DNA of 64,000 nt from Holosporaceae bacterium UBA7879 (GTDB taxonomy: Bacteria > Pseudomonadota > Alphaproteobacteria > UBA7879): the NCBI GenBank assembly GCA_002500565.1, contig DLRV01000011.1, positions 42,019 through 106,018 of the forward strand, written 5' to 3'. The first letter of the stretch is position 1, and every line of letters begins with the position of its first letter. The position numbers and the translations under genes were made by a program. Under the pieces are notes generated by a model, which searched no databases, had not been told where the DNA came from, and was given only the letters and a program-made list of their open reading frames with translations. Shown piece after piece: positions 11,888-46,377 of this stretch.

Positions 11888-14395
11888 TTAAAAAGAGCCA
11901 GAATGCCGCCTTCCAAAATCTTCCTCGCCTTCTTCTTGGATTCTTCCAACGTCTGACCTTTTGCAGACTCTGCTCATTTTCATGTCAACCAAAAGGGCAT
12001 TTGCACTAGACCCTAACCGCCTAACTTGATCAACATAATCTAGCATTCGCTTCGAGATACTACTAAATCTCTCCTGAGCAGCCTGTATATCAGCATGATA
12101 ATCTATAAGGTGTGACTCTCTTGTTGCTAACGCAGGAAGACCATCCGTACCTTTAAATATTTTTGTTTCATCCTGCCACTTCTGAGCATGTAGAATAATT
12201 TCTGGAAAATTCTTTTGTGCATAAGCTATCTGCACAAGGCGGACAAAACTCATACTCGGGATTTGAATTGGCGAATTTTCAAGCGATTTTTCAAGAAGCT
12301 GTTTAGCTCTAAAAAGCGCATGCAGATGAAAATCTCTTTCGCAATCCCATGGTTGTCCAACTCTTCTTTGCATGTGAAGGTTAGCCTGGCCTTGATAGCA
12401 AAGAGATGTAAAATATTTTACAGCCCAATTATTCTGTTTAATGTGACTGAAATAATTAATTGCAGTTTTGTAGGCTTTATATGCAGCATTCCCTACTTCA
12501 TAACCATCATGGGTTTTTACAATGGAAATTGGTTCACGATTTGGGAGTGATTCTTCAAAGGCTTGAAGCCTTCTAGCAGCAACAAAATGATAAACACCCA
12601 GTCCAAGTGTATCTGTTTGCACAATGTGATCAAGTCCTTCATTTTCTTCCTGCTTAAAAAACACCTCATAAGCATCAGGTGATTTTGGCCTCTCAACTGC
12701 AAAATCAAAATGAACAGATTGATGACCGCCAATAGGAACAGGACTAGAAAGGCCTCTACAAGCAACAGCGTGCGGGAACCTGTATGCTTCTTCAACTGCT
12801 TCCTGGCTATTTAAAGGGCTTGACCTTTCAGTTAGGTGTTTGTGATGCGCTGAAGTTTCTCGATATTGATTGTTTAAAGCACCAAATCTTCTTCTGATGT
12901 AGTAACTTTTGAAACAGGTAAAAAGATTTTTTCTTAAGTTAGAATCCAAATTGGGGTTTTTTAATAACTTATCTGTGTTTATCATTCGCGCATAAATACC
13001 ATCATCTGGCTTCGGAGATTCTGTTTCAGCAAGAACCTCAGAAGCTCTCATTACAGGCTCTTCATTATGTAGAATTTCCACCATCTTGCCGTGGAACCTT
13101 TCTAATCTCTCCGTTAGTCTTTTTCTTTCATCTTGAAGCGCGCTTATTATTGGAGAAGAAGAATCGCGATCTTTAAAATAATTAATCCATAAATCAATAG
13201 CAAATGCCGTGATCTCGTGTTTGTCTTTTGGCTTCCACATTTCCCTATAAATAGGATCTTTAGGCCACAATTGATGAAGTTTTTCTTCAACATCCTGAAC
13301 ATGCTCAACCACAACTGGATAAATAAGCTGTCGTGTTTGACTTGGCTTTTTCCCTTCAAGTTCCAAGCGCTTTTCAATTTCATCTAATTCACGCCAAAGG
13401 TGGCTGTCATTAGGCCCTTCAACAACTTCAGCAGTTCCAGTATGGTCAATCTCATTTTTTAATTTCTTTTTCTTTTCCCGGTCTGCCTTCCATTCAATAG
13501 CTGAATTAAGAAATTCGTTTGTAATAGCTACAAGAATTGCATCAGTATCACCTAACGTTGCTCTATATTGTGAAATATCTCCAGAATCATTATCAATAAC
13601 ATCCATTGTTGCCCCAACACCCGCTCCGCGCAAAAAAGACCGCATCAATCTAACTTTTTCTTGAAATTTGTCCCTTATGGTTAGATCGCTGGGCCATTTG
13701 TAACAAATAAAAGCTTTCATTGATCTTTTATGGGCTTGGACAATTGATCCAATATTTTCTGCAGCACCATTCAAAAAAGGCTGCAAAACGCCACCAAGAC
13801 CAAAAAACTTTCTAAAGGGTATTTGTTCATCAATTTCAGCCTGCACTCGATGTTTCAAAGGTGCATACTCAACGATAAATCGCCGCATTTTCTCCATATC
13901 GCCATCGGAAAAAGATCGGCGTTGAGGGCGTCTACTTCTATGATGCGCGTGTCTTGAACGCATTACAGGCGTTTCATCAGTTTGTGTAGAGGGGCTTGTT
14001 AAGCTACGGTGTAAAGGACTATTAGCTCTTACTGGGCGGGAATGTCCGGCCACAGCAAAGAGAGAACTACTAGAACTTACAGGACGAGATGTTGCGGCTT
14101 GTTCATCACCTTCCTCATCATCCATACTATTATCTTCTGATGAAGTTCTAGCACCAGCTTGCCCGCGAGATAGGCTTGGTTTTTCAGCTGACGTATCCGA
14201 CATTTCATCTGGACTACTATCATTATCTTCTTCCTCCTCCATCATCAAAGCTGGTCTTTTTGCAATTGGCGCCCCGTTGGTAGAGCGAGATCCGTGGTTT
14301 TCTGGTGCAGTCACTAGTCCAGAGCCATCATCTCCAGGTGCAGGAAATGCAGACCAACAGAATAGAAAAAGAGATAAGATAAAAAAATGTTTCAT
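11888..14395 (-). CDS. secreted multidomain protein with TIR/SEFIR-like domain (effector candidate)
   Basis: 835 aa; Sec signal peptide (MKHFFILSLFLFCWSAFPA); acidic/Ser-rich low-complexity region; central segment AFICYKWPSD...GVGATMDVIDNDSGDI...DAILVAITNEFLNS resembles TIR/SEFIR beta-alpha core; C-terminal helical region. Confidence 0.5.
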   Translation of the reverse strand: MKHFFILSLFLFCWSAFPAPGDDGSGLVTAPENHGSRSTNGAPIAKRPALMMEEEEDNDSSPDEMSDTSAEKPSLSRGQAGARTSSEDNSMDDEEGDEQAATSRPVSSSSSLFAVAGHSRPVRANSPLHRSLTSPSTQTDETPVMRSRHAHHRSRRPQRRSFSDGDMEKMRRFIVEYAPLKHRVQAEIDEQIPFRKFFGLGGVLQPFLNGAAENIGSIVQAHKRSMKAFICYKWPSDLTIRDKFQEKVRLMRSFLRGAGVGATMDVIDNDSGDISQYRATLGDTDAILVAITNEFLNSAIEWKADREKKKKLKNEIDHTGTAEVVEGPNDSHLWRELDEIEKRLELEGKKPSQTRQLIYPVVVEHVQDVEEKLHQLWPKDPIYREMWKPKDKHEITAFAIDLWINYFKDRDSSSPIISALQDERKRLTERLERFHGKMVEILHNEEPVMRASEVLAETESPKPDDGIYARMINTDKLLKNPNLDSNLRKNLFTCFKSYYIRRRFGALNNQYRETSAHHKHLTERSSPLNSQEAVEEAYRFPHAVACRGLSSPVPIGGHQSVHFDFAVERPKSPDAYEVFFKQEENEGLDHIVQTDTLGLGVYHFVAARRLQAFEESLPNREPISIVKTHDGYEVGNAAYKAYKTAINYFSHIKQNNWAVKYFTSLCYQGQANLHMQRRVGQPWDCERDFHLHALFRAKQLLEKSLENSPIQIPSMSFVRLVQIAYAQKNFPEIILHAQKWQDETKIFKGTDGLPALATRESHLIDYHADIQAAQERFSSISKRMLDYVDQVRRLGSSANALLVDMKMSRVCKRSDVGRIQEEGEEDFGRRHSGSF

Positions 14396-14480
14396 GTGTC
14401 TTTTGAAATGTTATTATTTACTAGTAAACACATTTGATTTTGAGATATTTTTTGAAAAAATAAATTAATTAAACTTTTAG

Positions 14481-44950: not shown

Positions 44951-44958
44951 AAAGCTTA

Positions 44959-46377
44959 CTAAATAGCAGCTGGTCTTAGCAGCCCCCTGTAACATTCTCC
45001 AAAAAGCTCCATCAAGCTTTCCAACTGATCAGCTGGTACATAAACCCTTTGCAAATTTGTAAAAAAATATTGTGGAAACATTATAAATCTTTCTGATACT
45101 GACAAACTTAAGTATAGAATTTGTAGGAATTTAGTCTCATCCAATAAACGAACCCCAACATGCGTCAATGCTGGCGCATATAGGTGCAGGACTTGTAGGG
45201 AGTAATTCATACTCAAAAATGCATTCCCAACACTCGTCAATGCTGGTACATAGAGATGCATAGTTTGTAGATCGCGGGGGCCACTCAGGACATTATGCCC
45301 ACAACGCGTTAATGCTGGCATATATAGATGCAAAGTTTGCAGATTGAGGTTGCTAGAAAAGAAATAATCCCCAATTGTTTGCACGCTCTCATCAGCATTG
45401 GTTAGTACCAAGTTACGCAGACGATTGGGGAGATCTGCTCTGCCCCGCATGGTAAACACTGGGCCCGCAGCATCAATATCTATAACAACTGTTGGTTGTG
45501 GACCCTCAGCATTTTCTGGCAATAAGCGATTGATATCATCTTTTAATCCAGCCAGCTGGCTGTGTTGAACAACCCAGTAAGAGTCTGTATCAATCGCTTC
45601 CGTTTCAGCGGTGATTTCTTGGTAGTTTGTATCAAGAAACGTCTGCAATCCATTGTGCCCACGTGGGTTCCAAACCCGATCACGGAAAGCTTGCATCCAC
45701 TCTTTTTTCTTGTCTTCAGTGGTATAGTAAACTTCATAGCCAAAAAACTGATGCTGCAATGCGGCTTTTTGCACAAACGTTAAATCTTGTGCATCCTCAC
45801 CCAACGCCTGCAGAATAAGCCTGTACATGTTCTCATGCTGCATGCTCTCACTTTTACTTGCAATGCTCATCGCCATCTCACTGTTGTTTTTTATGGCAAG
45901 AAGCTCATAGCTTCCCAGAGCAGCCTTTAAAATACCTTTTCTCTCTTCTGGTAGATAGCGACGAGATAAAACTTGTTTTAAATCGACTGAAATTCTCTCC
46001 AAGTGAAAAACAGGCAATCCCATATCAGGCAATGCCTTACCCGTTGGATCTTTAGGCCCACCACTCTCTTGATACAGAGCTTTCTTCAGGTGATGAATAC
46101 GTGCATCACCAACCATTCTTGTCATTTGTCTTGAAGCTTCAGCCAACCGCACTGCCGACGTAGGATCCAGAAAGGGCACGATACGATCAATAACCTCTTG
46201 TGGCAGATTCGCTAACGTTGGAGGAGAATCTGATGCTTGCGGCGATGCCGCTGCCGCAGCGGCAGGCTCAGTCTCTTCAGCTTCATCGTTTGGGCCTACG
46301 GCCTGCACCGAGGTGCTCATCATGCCAAGAACCAATGCTATGCCAAGCCATAGCTGTAAAATCTTTTTCATAATCAC
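44959..46377 (-). CDS. secreted leucine-rich-repeat protein (BspA/LRR_5-like; effector candidate)
   Basis: 472 aa; signal peptide (LQLWLGIALVLGMMSTSVQA); C-terminal ~22-aa repeats LQTLHLYMPALTRCGHNVLSGP / LQTMHLYVPALTSVGNAFLSMN / LQVLHLYAPALTHVGVRLLDET. Confidence 0.55.
   Translation of the reverse strand: MIMKKILQLWLGIALVLGMMSTSVQAVGPNDEAEETEPAAAAAASPQASDSPPTLANLPQEVIDRIVPFLDPTSAVRLAEASRQMTRMVGDARIHHLKKALYQESGGPKDPTGKALPDMGLPVFHLERISVDLKQVLSRRYLPEERKGILKAALGSYELLAIKNNSEMAMSIASKSESMQHENMYRLILQALGEDAQDLTFVQKAALQHQFFGYEVYYTTEDKKKEWMQAFRDRVWNPRGHNGLQTFLDTNYQEITAETEAIDTDSYWVVQHSQLAGLKDDINRLLPENAEGPQPTVVIDIDAAGPVFTMRGRADLPNRLRNLVLTNADESVQTIGDYFFSSNLNLQTLHLYMPALTRCGHNVLSGPRDLQTMHLYVPALTSVGNAFLSMNYSLQVLHLYAPALTHVGVRLLDETKFLQILYLSLSVSERFIMFPQYFFTNLQRVYVPADQLESLMELFGECYRGLLRPAAI

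What the first reader, a model, noticed from the sequence alone, without database searches (positions are those of the whole stretch)
11888..46377. Unusually dense archipelago of Sec-signal proteins with low-complexity or eukaryote-like features
Within about 35 kb there are at least nine medium or large proteins with N-terminal signal peptides and no recognisable housekeeping function: 11888 (TIR-like), 16110, 16626, 18508, 25113 (coiled coil), 36469 (MTase), 38214 (Ala-rich), 39961 (acidic), 44959 (LRR). Many have Ala/Pro/Gln/acidic low-complexity linkers or tandem repeats. They are interspersed with phage and IS remnants and MITE-like repeats. This looks like a horizontally assembled secretome or effector region rather than ordinary periplasmic content. 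The T6SS at the right edge is one candidate export route, although classical T6SS substrates lack Sec signals.
Basis: inference. Interest (0 to 1): 0.6.

Follow-up and report, generated by a model that had tools for sequence, protein, structure and literature searches.

The report
Fast-evolving exported proteins of a marine endosymbiont
This stretch of an uncultured marine intracellular bacterium really is packed with unannotated proteins carrying export signals, but they are scattered among core genes, inherited in place and diverging very fast, a pattern already described for related symbionts rather than an imported secretion island.

Summary
All nine ORFs have Sec-type N-termini, and orthologues or paralogues conserve the signal in three families (11888, 16626, 44959). 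For 36469 it depends on which ATG is used. Low-complexity and poly-Ala segments are concentrated in these genes. Signal-bearing genes make up 11 of 21 genes here, against 3 of 23 in the rest of the window.

The window comes from a Tara Oceans "Rickettsiales bacterium" MAG that is Holosporaceae-like and has an ATP/ADP translocase and a T6SS. The nine genes are interleaved with core genes (tRNA-Ser, tlc, infB, nusA). The block 10820-24141 is collinear with a relative, where neighbours are 57-95% identical but the signal proteins only 26-34%. 18508 is missing there. 36469 and 38214 have no homologue in billions of proteins. 44959 belongs to a recombining paralogue family.

GC3 is lower than in core genes (0.30 vs 0.40). 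Covarying REP-like hairpins flank several of the genes. I found no donor, no integrase and no link to the T6SS.

Best reading: a lineage-specific, rapidly turning-over Sec-exported repertoire for the envelope or host interface. This was already reported for Ca. Bodocaedibacter, so it is a new member of a known kind. Modest extras are a SEFIR/TIR-like fold in 11888 and a sub-threshold F-box-like motif with BspA-type LRRs in 44959.

The parts
11888..14395 (-). 835-aa protein. Layout: signal peptide (MKHFFILSLFLFCWSAF...), acidic/Ser-rich disordered linker (~res 25-165), SEFIR/TIR-like alpha/beta domain (~res 220-380, DNA 13256-13738), helical C-terminal region.
16110..16406 (-). Small (~98 aa) putative lipoprotein, taking the internal ATG as the start. 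Signal MKDLGRSGYRKIQQCGVAVLLAG|C.
   Evidence: AGGAGG ribosome-binding site before this ATG. Lipobox by inspection. The orthologue in L016 is 34% identical and has a hydrophobic N-terminus.
16668..18284 (+). 538-aa protein with a signal peptide (MNIRKYFAFTLSFICLNPFA|QINYD) and two poly-Ala/Pro linkers.
   Evidence: The orthologue in L016 is 26-31% identical, with the signal peptide and mature N-terminus conserved. No family hit.
18508..20610 (+). 700-aa protein with a signal peptide, an acidic start (MDPAEDQEE), an internal 81-nt tandem repeat (19116-19295) and a Pro/Gly-rich middle. Its C-terminal domain is shared with a 547-aa signal-bearing protein of a relative.
   Evidence: Absent from the otherwise collinear contig L016. 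C-terminal residues 404-697 are 31% identical to L100 16127-17770. REP-like hairpins flank it at 18371 and 20954.
25113..28316 (-). 1067-aa protein with a signal peptide, 29% Ala and 13% Gln. It has an all-helical repeat region (three ~340-410-nt repeats) and a non-repetitive C-terminal ~200 aa.
   Evidence: Composition. Repeat families D1, D2 and D7. 74% low complexity. AAGGGA ribosome-binding site. All public short-read contigs break inside it. Only a spurious SMC-like hit.
28367..29170 (-). Outer-membrane beta-barrel-like protein with a signal peptide (MSKFKILTSVLALSANLAVA|E).
   Evidence: No Pfam hit. The beta-barrel reading is inferred from the sequence pattern. A position-equivalent OMP sits beside tlc in L005.
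31006..32091 (-). APH-family kinase-like protein with a signal-like N-terminus (MGGIYRLILVLFVGLCMQSEA).
   Evidence: PF01636. Public gene calls use this 361-aa start. It is 56% identical to the L017 orthologue, while infB, nusA and tlc are 87-93%. The orthologue N-terminus is also hydrophobic.
36469..37809 (-). 446-aa protein with a generic class-I SAM methyltransferase domain (DNA ~37087-37506) and an unknown C-terminal half. It has a signal peptide only if translation starts at MKPCLY (37809).
   Evidence: Methyltransf_25/31 just above threshold. Weak RlmI/PmtA-like matches. Only a self hit among 5.8e9 proteins. The NCBI and Tara gene call starts 12 codons later, at MTSNVF. Neither ATG has an RBS.
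38214..39698 (-). 494-aa Ala-rich (17%) protein with a signal peptide. A strict orphan.
   Evidence: Only a self hit among 1.84e9 representative proteins scanned in full with HMMER.
39961..42138 (-). 725-aa protein with a signal peptide, a conserved N-terminal domain (~res 89-275), a long acidic/Ser/Gly-rich disordered middle and a Lys-rich C-terminal domain.
   Evidence: Residues 89-275 are 30% identical to a 929-aa signal-bearing protein elsewhere in the same MAG, L097 1952-4741. REP-like hairpins lie on both sides, at 39889 and 42216-42322.
44959..46371 (-). 470-aa member of a paralogue family. Layout: signal peptide, acidic/poly-Ala linker, F-box-like motif (res 54-91 of the 472-aa ORF from the GTG at 46377, DNA 46105-46218), conserved ~200-aa central domain, variable number of BspA-type LRR_5 repeats (DNA ~45034-45423).
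   Evidence: Family of 7. Two paralogues in the same MAG are 71-72% identical; relatives are 38-44%. F-box models score 18 bits, below their cut-offs, in 4 of 7 members. LRR_5 reaches E 2e-7 in the family. hhalign against canonical F-boxes gives 82% probability. Only the LRR part of the AF2 model is confident, and it matches TpLRR, PcpA and Bacteroides surface LRR proteins.
14538..15503 (+). Lys-rich protein with an N-terminal membrane anchor, conserved in the relative, next to tRNA-Ser(GCU) at 15577-15669.
   Evidence: It is 68% identical in L016. The tRNA is conserved at the same position in L016.
21046..24141 (-). Phage-derived module: lysozyme, phrog_6637 membrane protein, a 173-aa protein and portal.
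   Evidence: It is 57-95% identical and collinear in L016.
46510..49481 (-). Phage-derived head module: prohead protease-capsid fusion, head-tail adaptor, head completion protein and tail-terminator-like protein.
   Evidence: It is 100% identical in contig L099.
18371..44836 (.). 13 REP-like nested hairpins of the form GTCAT-NNN-GAR...GTG-N'N'N'-ATC, all intergenic. Positions: 18371, 20954, 22073, 22123, 22228, 22341, 24987, 39889, 42276, 44644, 44695, 44750(-) and 44800.
   Evidence: The outer stem covaries: 95% of cells paired, 0 of 500 shuffles reach this, and 3 of 3 variable pairs change on both sides. No Rfam family matches. The same element flanks paralogues in L097 and L100.
50153..50356 (-). 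68-aa fragment of an IS200-type Y1 transposase (possibly RAYT-like). It lies outside the finding's range.
   Evidence: PF01797, 29.1 bits against a cut-off of 23, covering profile positions 2-42 of 121.
57965..63649 (-). T6SS genes tssF, tssG and vgrG, plus a MORN_2 (YwqK-like) gene. Context only; not linked to the nine genes.
   Evidence: The same vgrG/YwqK arrangement is reported in Ca. Bodocaedibacter (PMC8163844).

Best explanation
The window comes from an uncultured, host-dependent marine alphaproteobacterium. It is named "Rickettsiales bacterium" in Tara Oceans MAGs, and its closest genome in the collection is a Holosporaceae MAG. The nine genes are unrelated to one another and specific to this lineage.

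Their products are taken across the inner membrane by the Sec pathway and released by signal peptidase I. For 16110 the release is by signal peptidase II, as a lipoprotein. Most have the layout signal peptide, then acidic/Ala/Pro-rich disordered tether, then folded domain.

The genes sit between core genes and are inherited in place. They diverge several times faster than their neighbours and are gained, lost, duplicated and recombined between close relatives. Their boundaries are often marked by REP-like hairpins.

Most likely they work in the periplasm, on the cell surface or outside the bacterium, at the interface with the eukaryotic host, where conflict or relaxed constraint drives fast change. 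A subset may reach the host by a non-classical route from the periplasm. The candidates are 11888 (SEFIR/TIR-like fold) and 44959 (F-box-like motif plus LRRs).

Shown: the signals and their conservation, orphan status, synteny, the contrast in divergence, gene turnover and the GC3 shift. Inferred: actual export, final location and any action on the host.
For: Organism.
- Genes 100% identical to the window occur in Tara, JGI and ENA marine assemblies and in MAG GCA_002696935.1.
- The closest Tlc in 185,579 species genomes is 76% identical and belongs to a Holosporaceae MAG.
- The window carries a TLC ATP/ADP translocase and a T6SS.

Export signals. They are conserved across 26-44%-identical homologues.

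Vertical inheritance with fast divergence. The L016 contig is collinear from 10820 to the portal gene, including tRNA-Ser.
- Neighbours are 57-95% identical.
- 11888 is 32%, 16110 is 34% and 16626 is 26% identical.
- In L017, aph is 56% identical while infB, nusA and tlc are 87-93%.

Turnover.
- 18508 is absent from L016.
- L017 has an extra 242-aa signal-bearing gene between aph and tlc.
- Unrelated signal-bearing genes follow tlc in L005.
- 36469 and 38214 have no homologues at all.

Paralogy and recombination in the 44959 family.
- P0004 and P0005 are in the same MAG or sample.
- P0003 differs from 44959 almost only at positions where it matches P0004.
- The first ~125 aa of P0005 are identical to 44959, and contig L099 switches neighbourhood there.

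Composition. GC3 is 0.30 in the candidates against 0.40 in core genes (Mann-Whitney p=0.0003).

Genome-wide habit. 5 of 12 genes in L097 and 7 hypothetical genes in L100 carry signals.

Precedents.
- Ca. Bodocaedibacter (Holosporales, T6SS, 40.6% GC) has 158 SignalP-positive proteins, 105 of them uncharacterised and lineage-restricted (PMC8163844).
- Holospora obtusa periplasmic protein PRP1 has a signal peptide and is released into the host nucleus (PMC9866348).
- In Chromulinavorax, 44% of CDS have signals and this set is enriched in orphans (PMC6561590).
Against: - No signal-peptide predictor trained on data was available; my rule is heuristic.
- Three public gene calls use downstream starts. 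For 36469 that start removes the signal peptide.
- There are no expression or localisation data.
- The divergence contrast rests on one relative for the left block and one for aph. No relative covers 25113, 36469, 38214 or 39961.
- The F-box hits are below Pfam thresholds.
- Low GC3 could equally reflect foreign origin.
- Rickettsia RARP-1 shows that the layout signal peptide, disordered region, eukaryote-like repeats can mean a resident periplasmic protein (bioRxiv 10.1101/2022.02.23.481736).
Confidence: 0.6

Rival explanations
1. The region is a horizontally assembled genomic island, or a patchwork of islands. Effector genes were imported by phages, IS elements or MITEs and stitched together.
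For: - Phage-derived modules and REP-like repeats are interspersed with the genes.
- A Y1 transposase fragment lies nearby.
- tRNA-Ser sits inside the block.
- Candidate GC3 is significantly lower than core GC3.
- 18508 is an indel relative to L016 and is bracketed by REP-like hairpins.
Against: - Core genes (tlc, aph, infB, nusA, tRNA-Ser) are interleaved with the candidates.
- The order from 10820 to the portal gene, including the tRNA and the phage module, is conserved in a relative.
- There is no integrase and there are no direct-repeat island borders.
- No homologue in any other lineage appears among 5.8e9 and 1.84e9 proteins.
- The phage genes have higher GC3 (0.45) than the candidates (0.30), so the two do not share a composition.
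- Similar genes are scattered at other loci of the same genome.
Confidence: 0.15
2. These are resident periplasmic, outer-membrane or surface structural proteins of a poorly sampled lineage. They would be envelope housekeeping for this bacterium with no direct action on the host. They look exotic only because databases lack relatives.
For: - A Sec signal by itself delivers a protein only to the periplasm.
- Rickettsia RARP-1 (signal, disordered region, ankyrin repeats) is periplasmic and not secreted.
- The LRR part of 44959 resembles the bacterial surface proteins TpLRR, PcpA and Bacteroides BspA-like proteins.
- 16110 is a lipoprotein, and 25113 is a long coiled-coil-like protein that could be structural.
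Against: - True envelope housekeeping genes in the window (dacC, rlpA, OMPs) are recognisable.
- The candidates diverge far faster than their neighbours and come and go between relatives that are 93% identical in NusA.
- Two candidates have no homologue even in those relatives.
Confidence: 0.2
3. They are substrates of the neighbouring type VI secretion system.
For: tssF, tssG and vgrG lie at 58720-63649. Related symbionts also combine a T6SS with a large secretome.
Against: - By established knowledge, T6SS cargo is loaded in the cytoplasm and lacks cleavable Sec signals.
- None of the nine genes is adjacent to the vgrG gene.
- At least 12 kb of core genes (pgk, matE, a GltD-like oxidoreductase) separate them from the T6SS.
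- The gene next to vgrG is a MORN/YwqK-type protein instead.
Confidence: 0.03
4. The signals are artefacts of choosing the longest ORF or the wrong start codon, or some of the ORFs are not genes.
For: - Public gene calls start 11888 at M91, 36469 at M13 of the MKPCLY-start protein and 38214 at M10.
- Ribosome-binding sites are weak throughout this genome.
Against: - ORFs of 470-1067 codons cannot arise by chance at 42% GC.
- Signals are conserved across homologues at 26-44% identity for 11888, 16626 and 44959.
- RBS-like AAGG motifs precede the signal-bearing starts of 16110, 18508, 25113, 38214 and 44959.
- Only 36469 remains truly ambiguous.
Confidence: 0.05

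Closest known systems
Lineage-specific Sec secretome of Ca. Bodocaedibacter vickermanii (Holosporales endosymbiont of Bodo saltans; PMC8163844)
   Same: A host-dependent Holosporales-type bacterium with ~40% GC, a T6SS with a YwqK/MORN gene next to vgrG, and incomplete prophage elements. It has a large set of SignalP-positive, uncharacterised, lineage-restricted proteins that includes a methyltransferase.
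   Different: That work is a genome-wide count, ~13% of genes by my estimate from the 1.39-Mb genome size. Here the local density is ~50% over 35 kb. There is no detectable sequence homology between the two sets. The 44959 and 11888 domain combinations are not mentioned in the passages I read.
Holospora obtusa periplasmic proteins (63-kDa PRP1, 89-kDa invasion-tip protein; PMC9866348)
   Same: Holosporales proteins with novel sequences and a putative signal peptide. They are stored in the periplasm, and PRP1 is then released into the host. This is a working model for how Sec-exported proteins could reach the host.
   Different: No sequence similarity was tested or found. The marine organism's morphology and any infectious form are unknown. 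Nothing here shows release.
Rickettsia RARP-1 (Sec signal, intrinsically disordered region, ankyrin repeats; bioRxiv 10.1101/2022.02.23.481736)
   Same: The same three-part layout as most of the nine: signal, long disordered linker, protein-interaction domain.
   Different: RARP-1 is conserved across Rickettsia and was shown to remain periplasmic. The proteins here are orphans and evolve fast, and their domains differ.
Bacterial F-box effectors (Ralstonia GALA F-box-LRR proteins, Legionella AnkB/LegU1, Orientia Ank-F-box; from my own knowledge, and PMC4148323 by title only)
   Same: 44959 combines an F-box-like LPxExxxxIxxFL motif with C-terminal leucine-rich repeats, as GALA proteins do.
   Different: Known F-box effectors are delivered by T3SS, T4SS or T1SS and have no Sec signal. 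Here the motif is below Pfam thresholds, is missing or degenerate in 2 of 7 family members, and the LRRs are BspA type (LRR_5).
BspA/TpLRR-type bacterial surface LRR proteins (PDB 6mlx, 4cp6, 4fs7)
   Same: Signal peptide plus LRR_5 repeats. These are the best structural matches for the confident part of the 44959 model.
   Different: Those proteins lack the F-box-like motif and the conserved ~200-aa central domain. The structural matches are weak (E 3e-3 or worse).
STIR superfamily (SEFIR/TIR) domains, e.g. prokaryotic SEFIR 5y8f and Act1 SEFIR
   Different: No sequence-profile match exists. As far as I know, bacterial TIR and SEFIR proteins are cytoplasmic defence or NADase proteins without signal peptides. 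Here the domain follows a Sec signal and a disordered linker.
REP elements and REP-associated tyrosine transposases (RAYTs)
   Same: Short intergenic imperfect palindromes in clusters, with conserved flanking bases and covarying stems. A Y1-transposase fragment lies in the window.
   Different: The transposase is a 68-aa remnant 5 kb from the nearest hairpin and cannot be typed as RAYT or IS200. No REP family assignment is possible.

Membership tests
Sec (SPI/SPII) signal-peptide proteins | N-terminal positively charged n-region, an 8-15-residue uncharged hydrophobic h-region, and small residues at -3/-1 (or a lipobox) | tested here: met
   8 of 9 pass my rule. 16626 passes except for Pro at -3. 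16110 has the lipobox LLAG|C. No trained predictor was available.
Sec (SPI/SPII) signal-peptide proteins | Signal retained in diverged homologues, which argues for the upstream start codon | tested here: met
   Met for 11888 (P0002), 16626 (L016 orthologue) and the 44959 family of 7. Not testable for 25113, 36469 and 38214, which have no homologues. 36469 is start-dependent.
Sec (SPI/SPII) signal-peptide proteins | Experimentally cleaved and exported | not testable with these tools
   Needs proteomics or reporter fusions.
Horizontally acquired genomic island | Absent from close relatives as a block; borders at a tRNA with direct repeats; integrase or mobility genes | tested here: not met
   The block 10820-24141, including tRNA-Ser, is collinear in L016. 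There is no integrase. No border repeats were found. Only single-gene indels are seen (18508; the extra gene in L017).
Horizontally acquired genomic island | Composition deviating from the core genome | tested here: inconclusive
   GC3 is 0.30 against 0.40 (p=0.0003), but codon-usage distance is not significantly different (p=0.06). Low GC3 is also expected for weakly constrained genes under AT-biased mutation.
T6SS effectors | No Sec signal; encoded next to vgrG, hcp, PAAR or adaptor genes, or carrying MIX/FIX/Rhs-type markers | tested here: not met
   All nine have Sec-type N-termini. None is adjacent to the vgrG gene at 58720-60825. No such Pfam domains were found.
TIR/SEFIR (STIR) domain | Significant match to a TIR, TIR_2 or SEFIR sequence profile | tested here: not met
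   No Pfam, NCBIfam, PADLOC or PDB-sequence hit for 11888 or P0002.
TIR/SEFIR (STIR) domain | Flavodoxin-like five-stranded parallel beta/alpha fold closest to TIR/SEFIR structures | tested here: inconclusive
TIR/SEFIR (STIR) domain | Catalytic glutamate or NADase activity, or adaptor oligomerisation | not tested
   Alignment quality is too low to place the catalytic residue. An enzyme assay is needed.
F-box proteins | Match to F-box profiles above the curated threshold | tested here: not met
   F-box_4 scores 18.5 bits (cut-off 32) and F-box-like 18.0 bits (cut-off 24.3). 4 of 7 family members give sub-threshold hits, best E 1e-3.
F-box proteins | Profile-profile similarity over the LPxE...I..FL helix 1-2 core | tested here: inconclusive
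F-box proteins | Binds host Skp1 | not testable with these tools
   Needs pull-down or two-hybrid experiments.
BspA-type LRR (Pfam LRR_5) | Profile match and LRR solenoid fold | tested here: met
   The window protein itself is sub-threshold (18.2 bits against 27.7). However, 5 of 7 family members hit LRR_5, best E 2.3e-7. The repeat region is modelled confidently as a beta-solenoid (pLDDT 75-88) and matches TpLRR and PcpA.
Autotransporter / T1SS / T9SS substrates | C-terminal beta-barrel, RTX repeats or a CTD sorting domain shared by the proteins | tested here: not met
   No such Pfam domains. The nine C-termini share no motif on inspection of the translations.
REP elements (with RAYT) | Short intergenic imperfect palindromes, multi-copy, structure conserved by covariation | tested here: met
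   13 copies, all intergenic. 95% of cells paired, 0 of 500 shuffles, and double-sided changes in 3 of 3 variable pairs.
REP elements (with RAYT) | Cognate intact RAYT-class Y1 transposase | tested here: inconclusive
   Only a 68-aa Y1_Tnp fragment is in the window. The rest of the genome was not seen.

The most novel reading that the evidence does not exclude
Some of these orphan proteins may be true host-directed effectors. Candidates are the F-box-like/LRR family (44959 and its paralogues), the SEFIR/TIR-like protein (11888) and perhaps the signal-bearing methyltransferase and kinase. They would first be exported by Sec and then reach the protist host from the periplasm by a non-classical route, as reported for Holospora PRP1. 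REP-bounded cassettes and recombination between paralogues would generate rapid effector diversification. That would give a Sec-dependent F-box or TIR-type effector class with no dedicated injection system.
Probability: 0.2. Interest if true: 0.55.

Novelty: new member of a known kind. Interest (0 to 1): 0.3.

Why it matters
The finding shows that an abundant but uncultured marine Holosporaceae-like symbiont devotes about half of a 35-kb stretch to orphan, fast-evolving proteins that are probably exported. It also yields a short, concrete list of candidates for host interaction: a SEFIR/TIR-like protein, an F-box-like/LRR paralogue family, and a methyltransferase and a kinase with signal peptides. 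The region illustrates how such repertoires can turn over in place, through divergence, indels and recombination between paralogues at REP-marked gaps, without a classical island. For genome scanning, the lesson is that a dense cluster of secreted orphans in an endosymbiont is expected biology. On its own it is not evidence of horizontal assembly or of a new secretion system.

Tried and rejected
- All-against-all BLASTP of the nine proteins and five neighbours found no paralogy, so this is not one expanded family.
- Pfam, NCBIfam and PADLOC searches gave only a generic methyltransferase domain (including the PADLOC mad2 hit) and sub-threshold F-box/LRR hits.
- The PDB sequence search with the 11888/P0002 profile found nothing. 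For 36469 it found only weak RlmI-like Rossmann matches.
- The genome-contig scan with Tlc did not find the source species, only a 76%-identical Holosporaceae MAG on a 6-kb contig and distant Rickettsiaceae.
- The metagenome scan with NusA returned one close relative, L017, which covers only the downstream side. The other 79 loci were generic alphaproteobacteria at 55-61% identity and useless for synteny.
- The AF2 model of 44959 was confident only in the LRR part. The F-box region and central domain could not be assessed structurally, and the Foldseek matches were weak.
- Rfam has no family for the REP-like hairpins.
- I looked for IS remnants inside the range. Translating all large gaps gave only a Y1_Tnp fragment outside the range and a 162-codon start-less ORF at 24495-24980 with no family.
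- I looked for a shared C-terminal secretion motif by eye and found none.
- I considered dN/dS against L016 and rejected it, because at 26-34% protein identity synonymous sites are saturated.
- I considered the contig L099 / P0005 junction as evidence of a real rearrangement. It cannot be told apart from an assembly switch across the identical ~375-nt 5' region of the paralogues.

Full report
**What is there.** The window has 44 ORFs that I treated as genes. Pfam annotation shows ordinary core genes on both sides and inside the finding.
- Left of the finding: holB, tmk, dacC, rlpA, potABC, recJ, an O-methyltransferase and an AhpC-like gene.
- Inside it: a TLC-family ATP/ADP translocase (29379-30914), an APH-type kinase, infB and nusA (31006-36253).
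- Right of it: pgk, matE, a GltD-like oxidoreductase, an OMP, a MORN_2 protein, and then vgrG, tssG and tssF (57965-63649).
- Two phage-derived modules are present: lysozyme to portal at 21046-24141, and prohead protease-capsid with connectors at 46510-49481.
- One tRNA-Ser(GCU) lies at 15577-15669.

**Whose genome it is.** Proteins 100% identical to those of the window occur on contigs from Tara Oceans, JGI and ENA marine metagenomes. They also occur in MAG GCA_002696935.1, which NCBI names "Rickettsiales bacterium". A scan of one genome per species (185,579 species) did not find the species itself. The closest Tlc (76%) is in an uncultured Holosporaceae MAG, and the next are Rickettsiaceae at 35-41%. 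An ATP/ADP translocase points to a host-dependent lifestyle. This inference rests on established knowledge of TLC transporters in Rickettsiales, Holosporales and Chlamydiae.

**Checking the observation.** A simple n/h/c-region plus -3/-1 rule finds a signal peptide in eight of the nine ORFs. The ninth, 16626, has MNIRKYFAFTLSFICLNPFA|QINYD from an internal ATG and fails only because of Pro at -3. Its 26-31%-identical orthologue in contig L016 has a signal peptide at the same place, followed by the same mature N-terminus.

The signal is likewise conserved in the only homologue of 11888 (P0002, 32% identity). It is conserved in all seven members of the 44959 family. 16110 is a small lipoprotein (LLAG|C) if it starts at the ATG preceded by AGGAGG.

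Public gene calls chose downstream starts for 11888 (M91), for 36469 (12 codons downstream of the MKPCLY start I used) and for 38214 (M10).
- For 11888 the orthologue supports M1.
- For 38214 the ribosome-binding site supports M1.
- For 36469 neither ATG has a ribosome-binding site and there is no homologue, so its signal peptide remains start-dependent.

None of the nine has a housekeeping annotation. 36469 has a generic class-I SAM methyltransferase domain, and 44959 has sub-threshold F-box and LRR_5 hits. The others have nothing in Pfam, NCBIfam or PADLOC.

Low complexity is real and specific. 25% of candidate residues are low-complexity, against 6.5% elsewhere. 19 of the 20 poly-Ala runs in the window are in six of the nine.

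With them, 11 of 21 genes in the range carry signals, against 3 of 23 elsewhere in the window (Fisher p=0.009). The nine are not paralogues of each other.

**Is it a horizontally assembled island?** The best evidence says mostly not.

Contig L016 was found through the 11888 homologue. It is collinear with window 10820-24141. The order is portal, two small phage genes, lysozyme, the 16626 orthologue, the 16110 orthologue, tRNA-Ser, the 14481 orthologue, the 11888 orthologue and the 10820 orthologue. Identities differ sharply by class:
- Portal 77%, phrog_6637 protein 96%, lysozyme 77%, the 173-aa protein 56%, 14481 68%.
- 11888 32%, 16110 34%, 16626 26%.

So these signal-bearing genes are inherited in place and diverge several times faster than their neighbours.

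The same holds for the kinase. In L017, aph is 56% identical while nusA, tlc and infB are 87-93%.

Turnover is also visible:
- 18508 is missing from L016, where lysozyme directly abuts the 16626 orthologue.
- L017 has an extra 242-aa signal-bearing gene between aph and tlc that the window lacks.
- In L005 the genes after tlc are signal-bearing proteins unrelated to 28367 or 25113.
- 36469 has only a self hit among 5.8 billion proteins, and 38214 only a self hit in a full HMMER scan of 1.84 billion representatives.

No integrase, island border repeats or donor lineage were found.

Candidate GC3 is significantly lower than core GC3 (0.30 vs 0.40, p=0.0003). The phage genes are higher (0.45), and codon-usage distance is not significantly different. 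I read the low GC3 as weak constraint under AT-biased mutation, but foreign origin cannot be excluded by this test.

Other contigs of the same MAG show the same kind of genes. In L097, 5 of 12 genes are signal-bearing hypotheticals, including a 929-aa protein whose N-terminal domain is 30% identical to that of 39961. A relative's contig, L100, has seven signal-bearing hypothetical genes, one of which shares the C-terminal domain of 18508. The dense patch is thus a local peak of a genome-wide habit.

**The 44959 family.** Seven members were found. Two are paralogues in the same MAG or sample (P0004 72%, P0005 71%). One is a 98% variant (P0003). Three are 38-44% relatives. All share four parts:
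- the signal peptide;
- an acidic/poly-Ala linker;
- a conserved ~200-aa central domain;
- a variable number of ~24-residue repeats.

Five members also carry LPxEVIDRIVxFLDP... Three Pfam F-box models hit this motif below threshold in up to 4 of 7 members. hhalign gives 82% probability against five canonical F-boxes that I supplied from memory. The repeats are BspA-type LRR_5, with a best family E-value of 2e-7.

Only the repeat part of the AF2 model is confident. It resembles the bacterial surface proteins TpLRR and PcpA and Bacteroides LRR proteins.

P0003 differs from 44959 almost only where it matches P0004. The first ~125 residues of P0005 are identical to 44959. At that point contig L099, which is 100% identical to window 46510-56172, continues into a different neighbourhood (MFS, RNase D, argS, rpsB). 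This indicates gene conversion or recombination among the paralogues, or an assembly switch across them.

**Repeats and IS.** Thirteen copies of a nested hairpin are present, all intergenic and all between 18371 and 44836. The form is GTCAT-NNN-GAR-[inner hairpin]-GTG-N'N'N'-ATC.
- They bracket 18508 and 39961.
- They pile up 3' of 44959.
- One follows 25113.
- Several lie inside the lysozyme/portal module.

The outer stem covaries. Across eight distinct variants, 95% of cells are paired, 0 of 500 shuffles reach this, and all three variable pairs change on both sides. The same element flanks the paralogues in L097 and L100. Rfam has no matching family.

A 68-aa IS200-type Y1 transposase fragment lies at 50153-50356, outside the range. 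The hairpins look like REP elements. Whether a RAYT made them cannot be said from this window.

**Mechanism.** Shown:
- Sec-type signals that are conserved.
- Orphan status.
- In-place inheritance.
- Fast divergence and turnover.
- Disordered acidic/Ala-rich tethers. 21 of 22 lineage-specific signal-bearing proteins have net acidic mature N-termini, and [MVIT][DG]Px[ED]E recurs in unrelated proteins.

Inferred: export to the periplasm, followed by residence in the envelope, surface display or release.

Precedents point both ways. In Ca. Bodocaedibacter vickermanii, 158 proteins are SignalP-positive, 105 of them uncharacterised and confined to that lineage (PMC8163844). Holospora obtusa PRP1 has a signal peptide, is stored in the periplasm and is released into the host nucleus (PMC9866348). 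In Chromulinavorax, 44% of CDS have signals, and this set is enriched in orphans (PMC6561590). However, Rickettsia RARP-1, which has the same layout of signal, disordered region and repeats, stays periplasmic (bioRxiv 10.1101/2022.02.23.481736).

The T6SS is not a credible route. Its cargo is loaded in the cytoplasm, and none of the nine is near the vgrG gene. No shared C-terminal sorting signal or autotransporter domain exists.

**Verdict.** The island and T6SS interpretations are not supported. The "effector-like secretome" reading is plausible but unproven. It matches what has already been published for related endosymbionts. This is a new member of a known kind, with two modest curiosities: a Sec-signal SEFIR/TIR-like protein, and a recombining F-box-like/BspA-LRR paralogue family. 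There is also a tidy case of REP-marked gene turnover. Interest 0.3.

Noticed in passing
window 18371-44836 (13 sites); L097 9624 and 11908; L100 5123, 5176 and 11626: REP-like nested hairpins of the form GTCAT-NNN-GAR...GTG-N'N'N'-ATC. They occur only in intergenic DNA, in five or more stem variants that stay complementary (95% paired, 0 of 500 shuffles). No Rfam family matches. They bracket 18508, 39961 and the 44959 paralogues.
   Followed up: partly
window 50153-50356 (-): A 68-aa fragment of an IS200-type Y1 transposase (PF01797, 29 bits). It may be a decayed RAYT related to the hairpins. It is the only IS remnant found, and it lies outside the finding's range.
   Followed up: partly
window 31006-32091 (-): An APH-family kinase-like protein with a signal-like N-terminus. 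It is only 56% identical to its orthologue in L017, while the flanking infB, nusA and tlc are 87-93%.
   Followed up: partly
window 44959-46509 versus L099 9497-11488: Contig L099 is 100% identical to window 46510-56172. It then runs into paralogue P0005, whose first ~125 aa are identical to 44959, and on to a different neighbourhood. This is either recombination between paralogues or an assembly switch. P0003 looks like a gene-conversion mosaic of 44959 and P0004.
   Followed up: partly
window 25113-28316: All public short-read contigs end inside the 1067-aa Ala/Gln-rich gene, because of its ~340-410-nt internal repeats. The copy number in the window may therefore be assembly-dependent.
   Followed up: no
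mature N-termini of the signal-bearing proteins in the window, L097, L100, L005, L016 and L017: 21 of 22 lineage-specific signal-bearing proteins have net acidic mature N-termini. A short [MVIT][DG]Px[ED]E motif recurs directly after the predicted cleavage site in unrelated proteins: 18508, the 44959 family, and the 219-aa and 171-aa proteins of L097. It could be a general Sec preference or a second sorting cue.
   Followed up: partly
window 7305-7550, 7554-7790 and 49696-50028 (+): Three small unlisted ORFs carry export signals. Two are tandem lipoprotein-like ORFs (lipoboxes ILSQC and LTLNQC). The third is a Cys-rich ~99-aa protein with a signal peptide and an MVL mannan-binding-lectin hit (27.7 bits against a cut-off of 25).
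   Followed up: partly
window 24495-24980 (-): A 162-codon open frame with no usable start codon and no family hit, in the 971-bp gap between the portal gene and 25113. It may be a gene remnant.
   Followed up: partly
window 57965-58711 (-): A MORN_2 (YwqK-like) gene lies immediately beside vgrG. The same arrangement is described as an antitoxin/immunity gene in Ca. Bodocaedibacter (PMC8163844).
   Followed up: no
window 21046-24141 and 46510-49481: The two phage-derived modules are split 22 kb apart. They are well conserved (57-96% in L016; 100% in L099). No terminase or tail genes are visible in the window. They could be a domesticated, GTA-like remnant rather than a decaying prophage.
   Followed up: no
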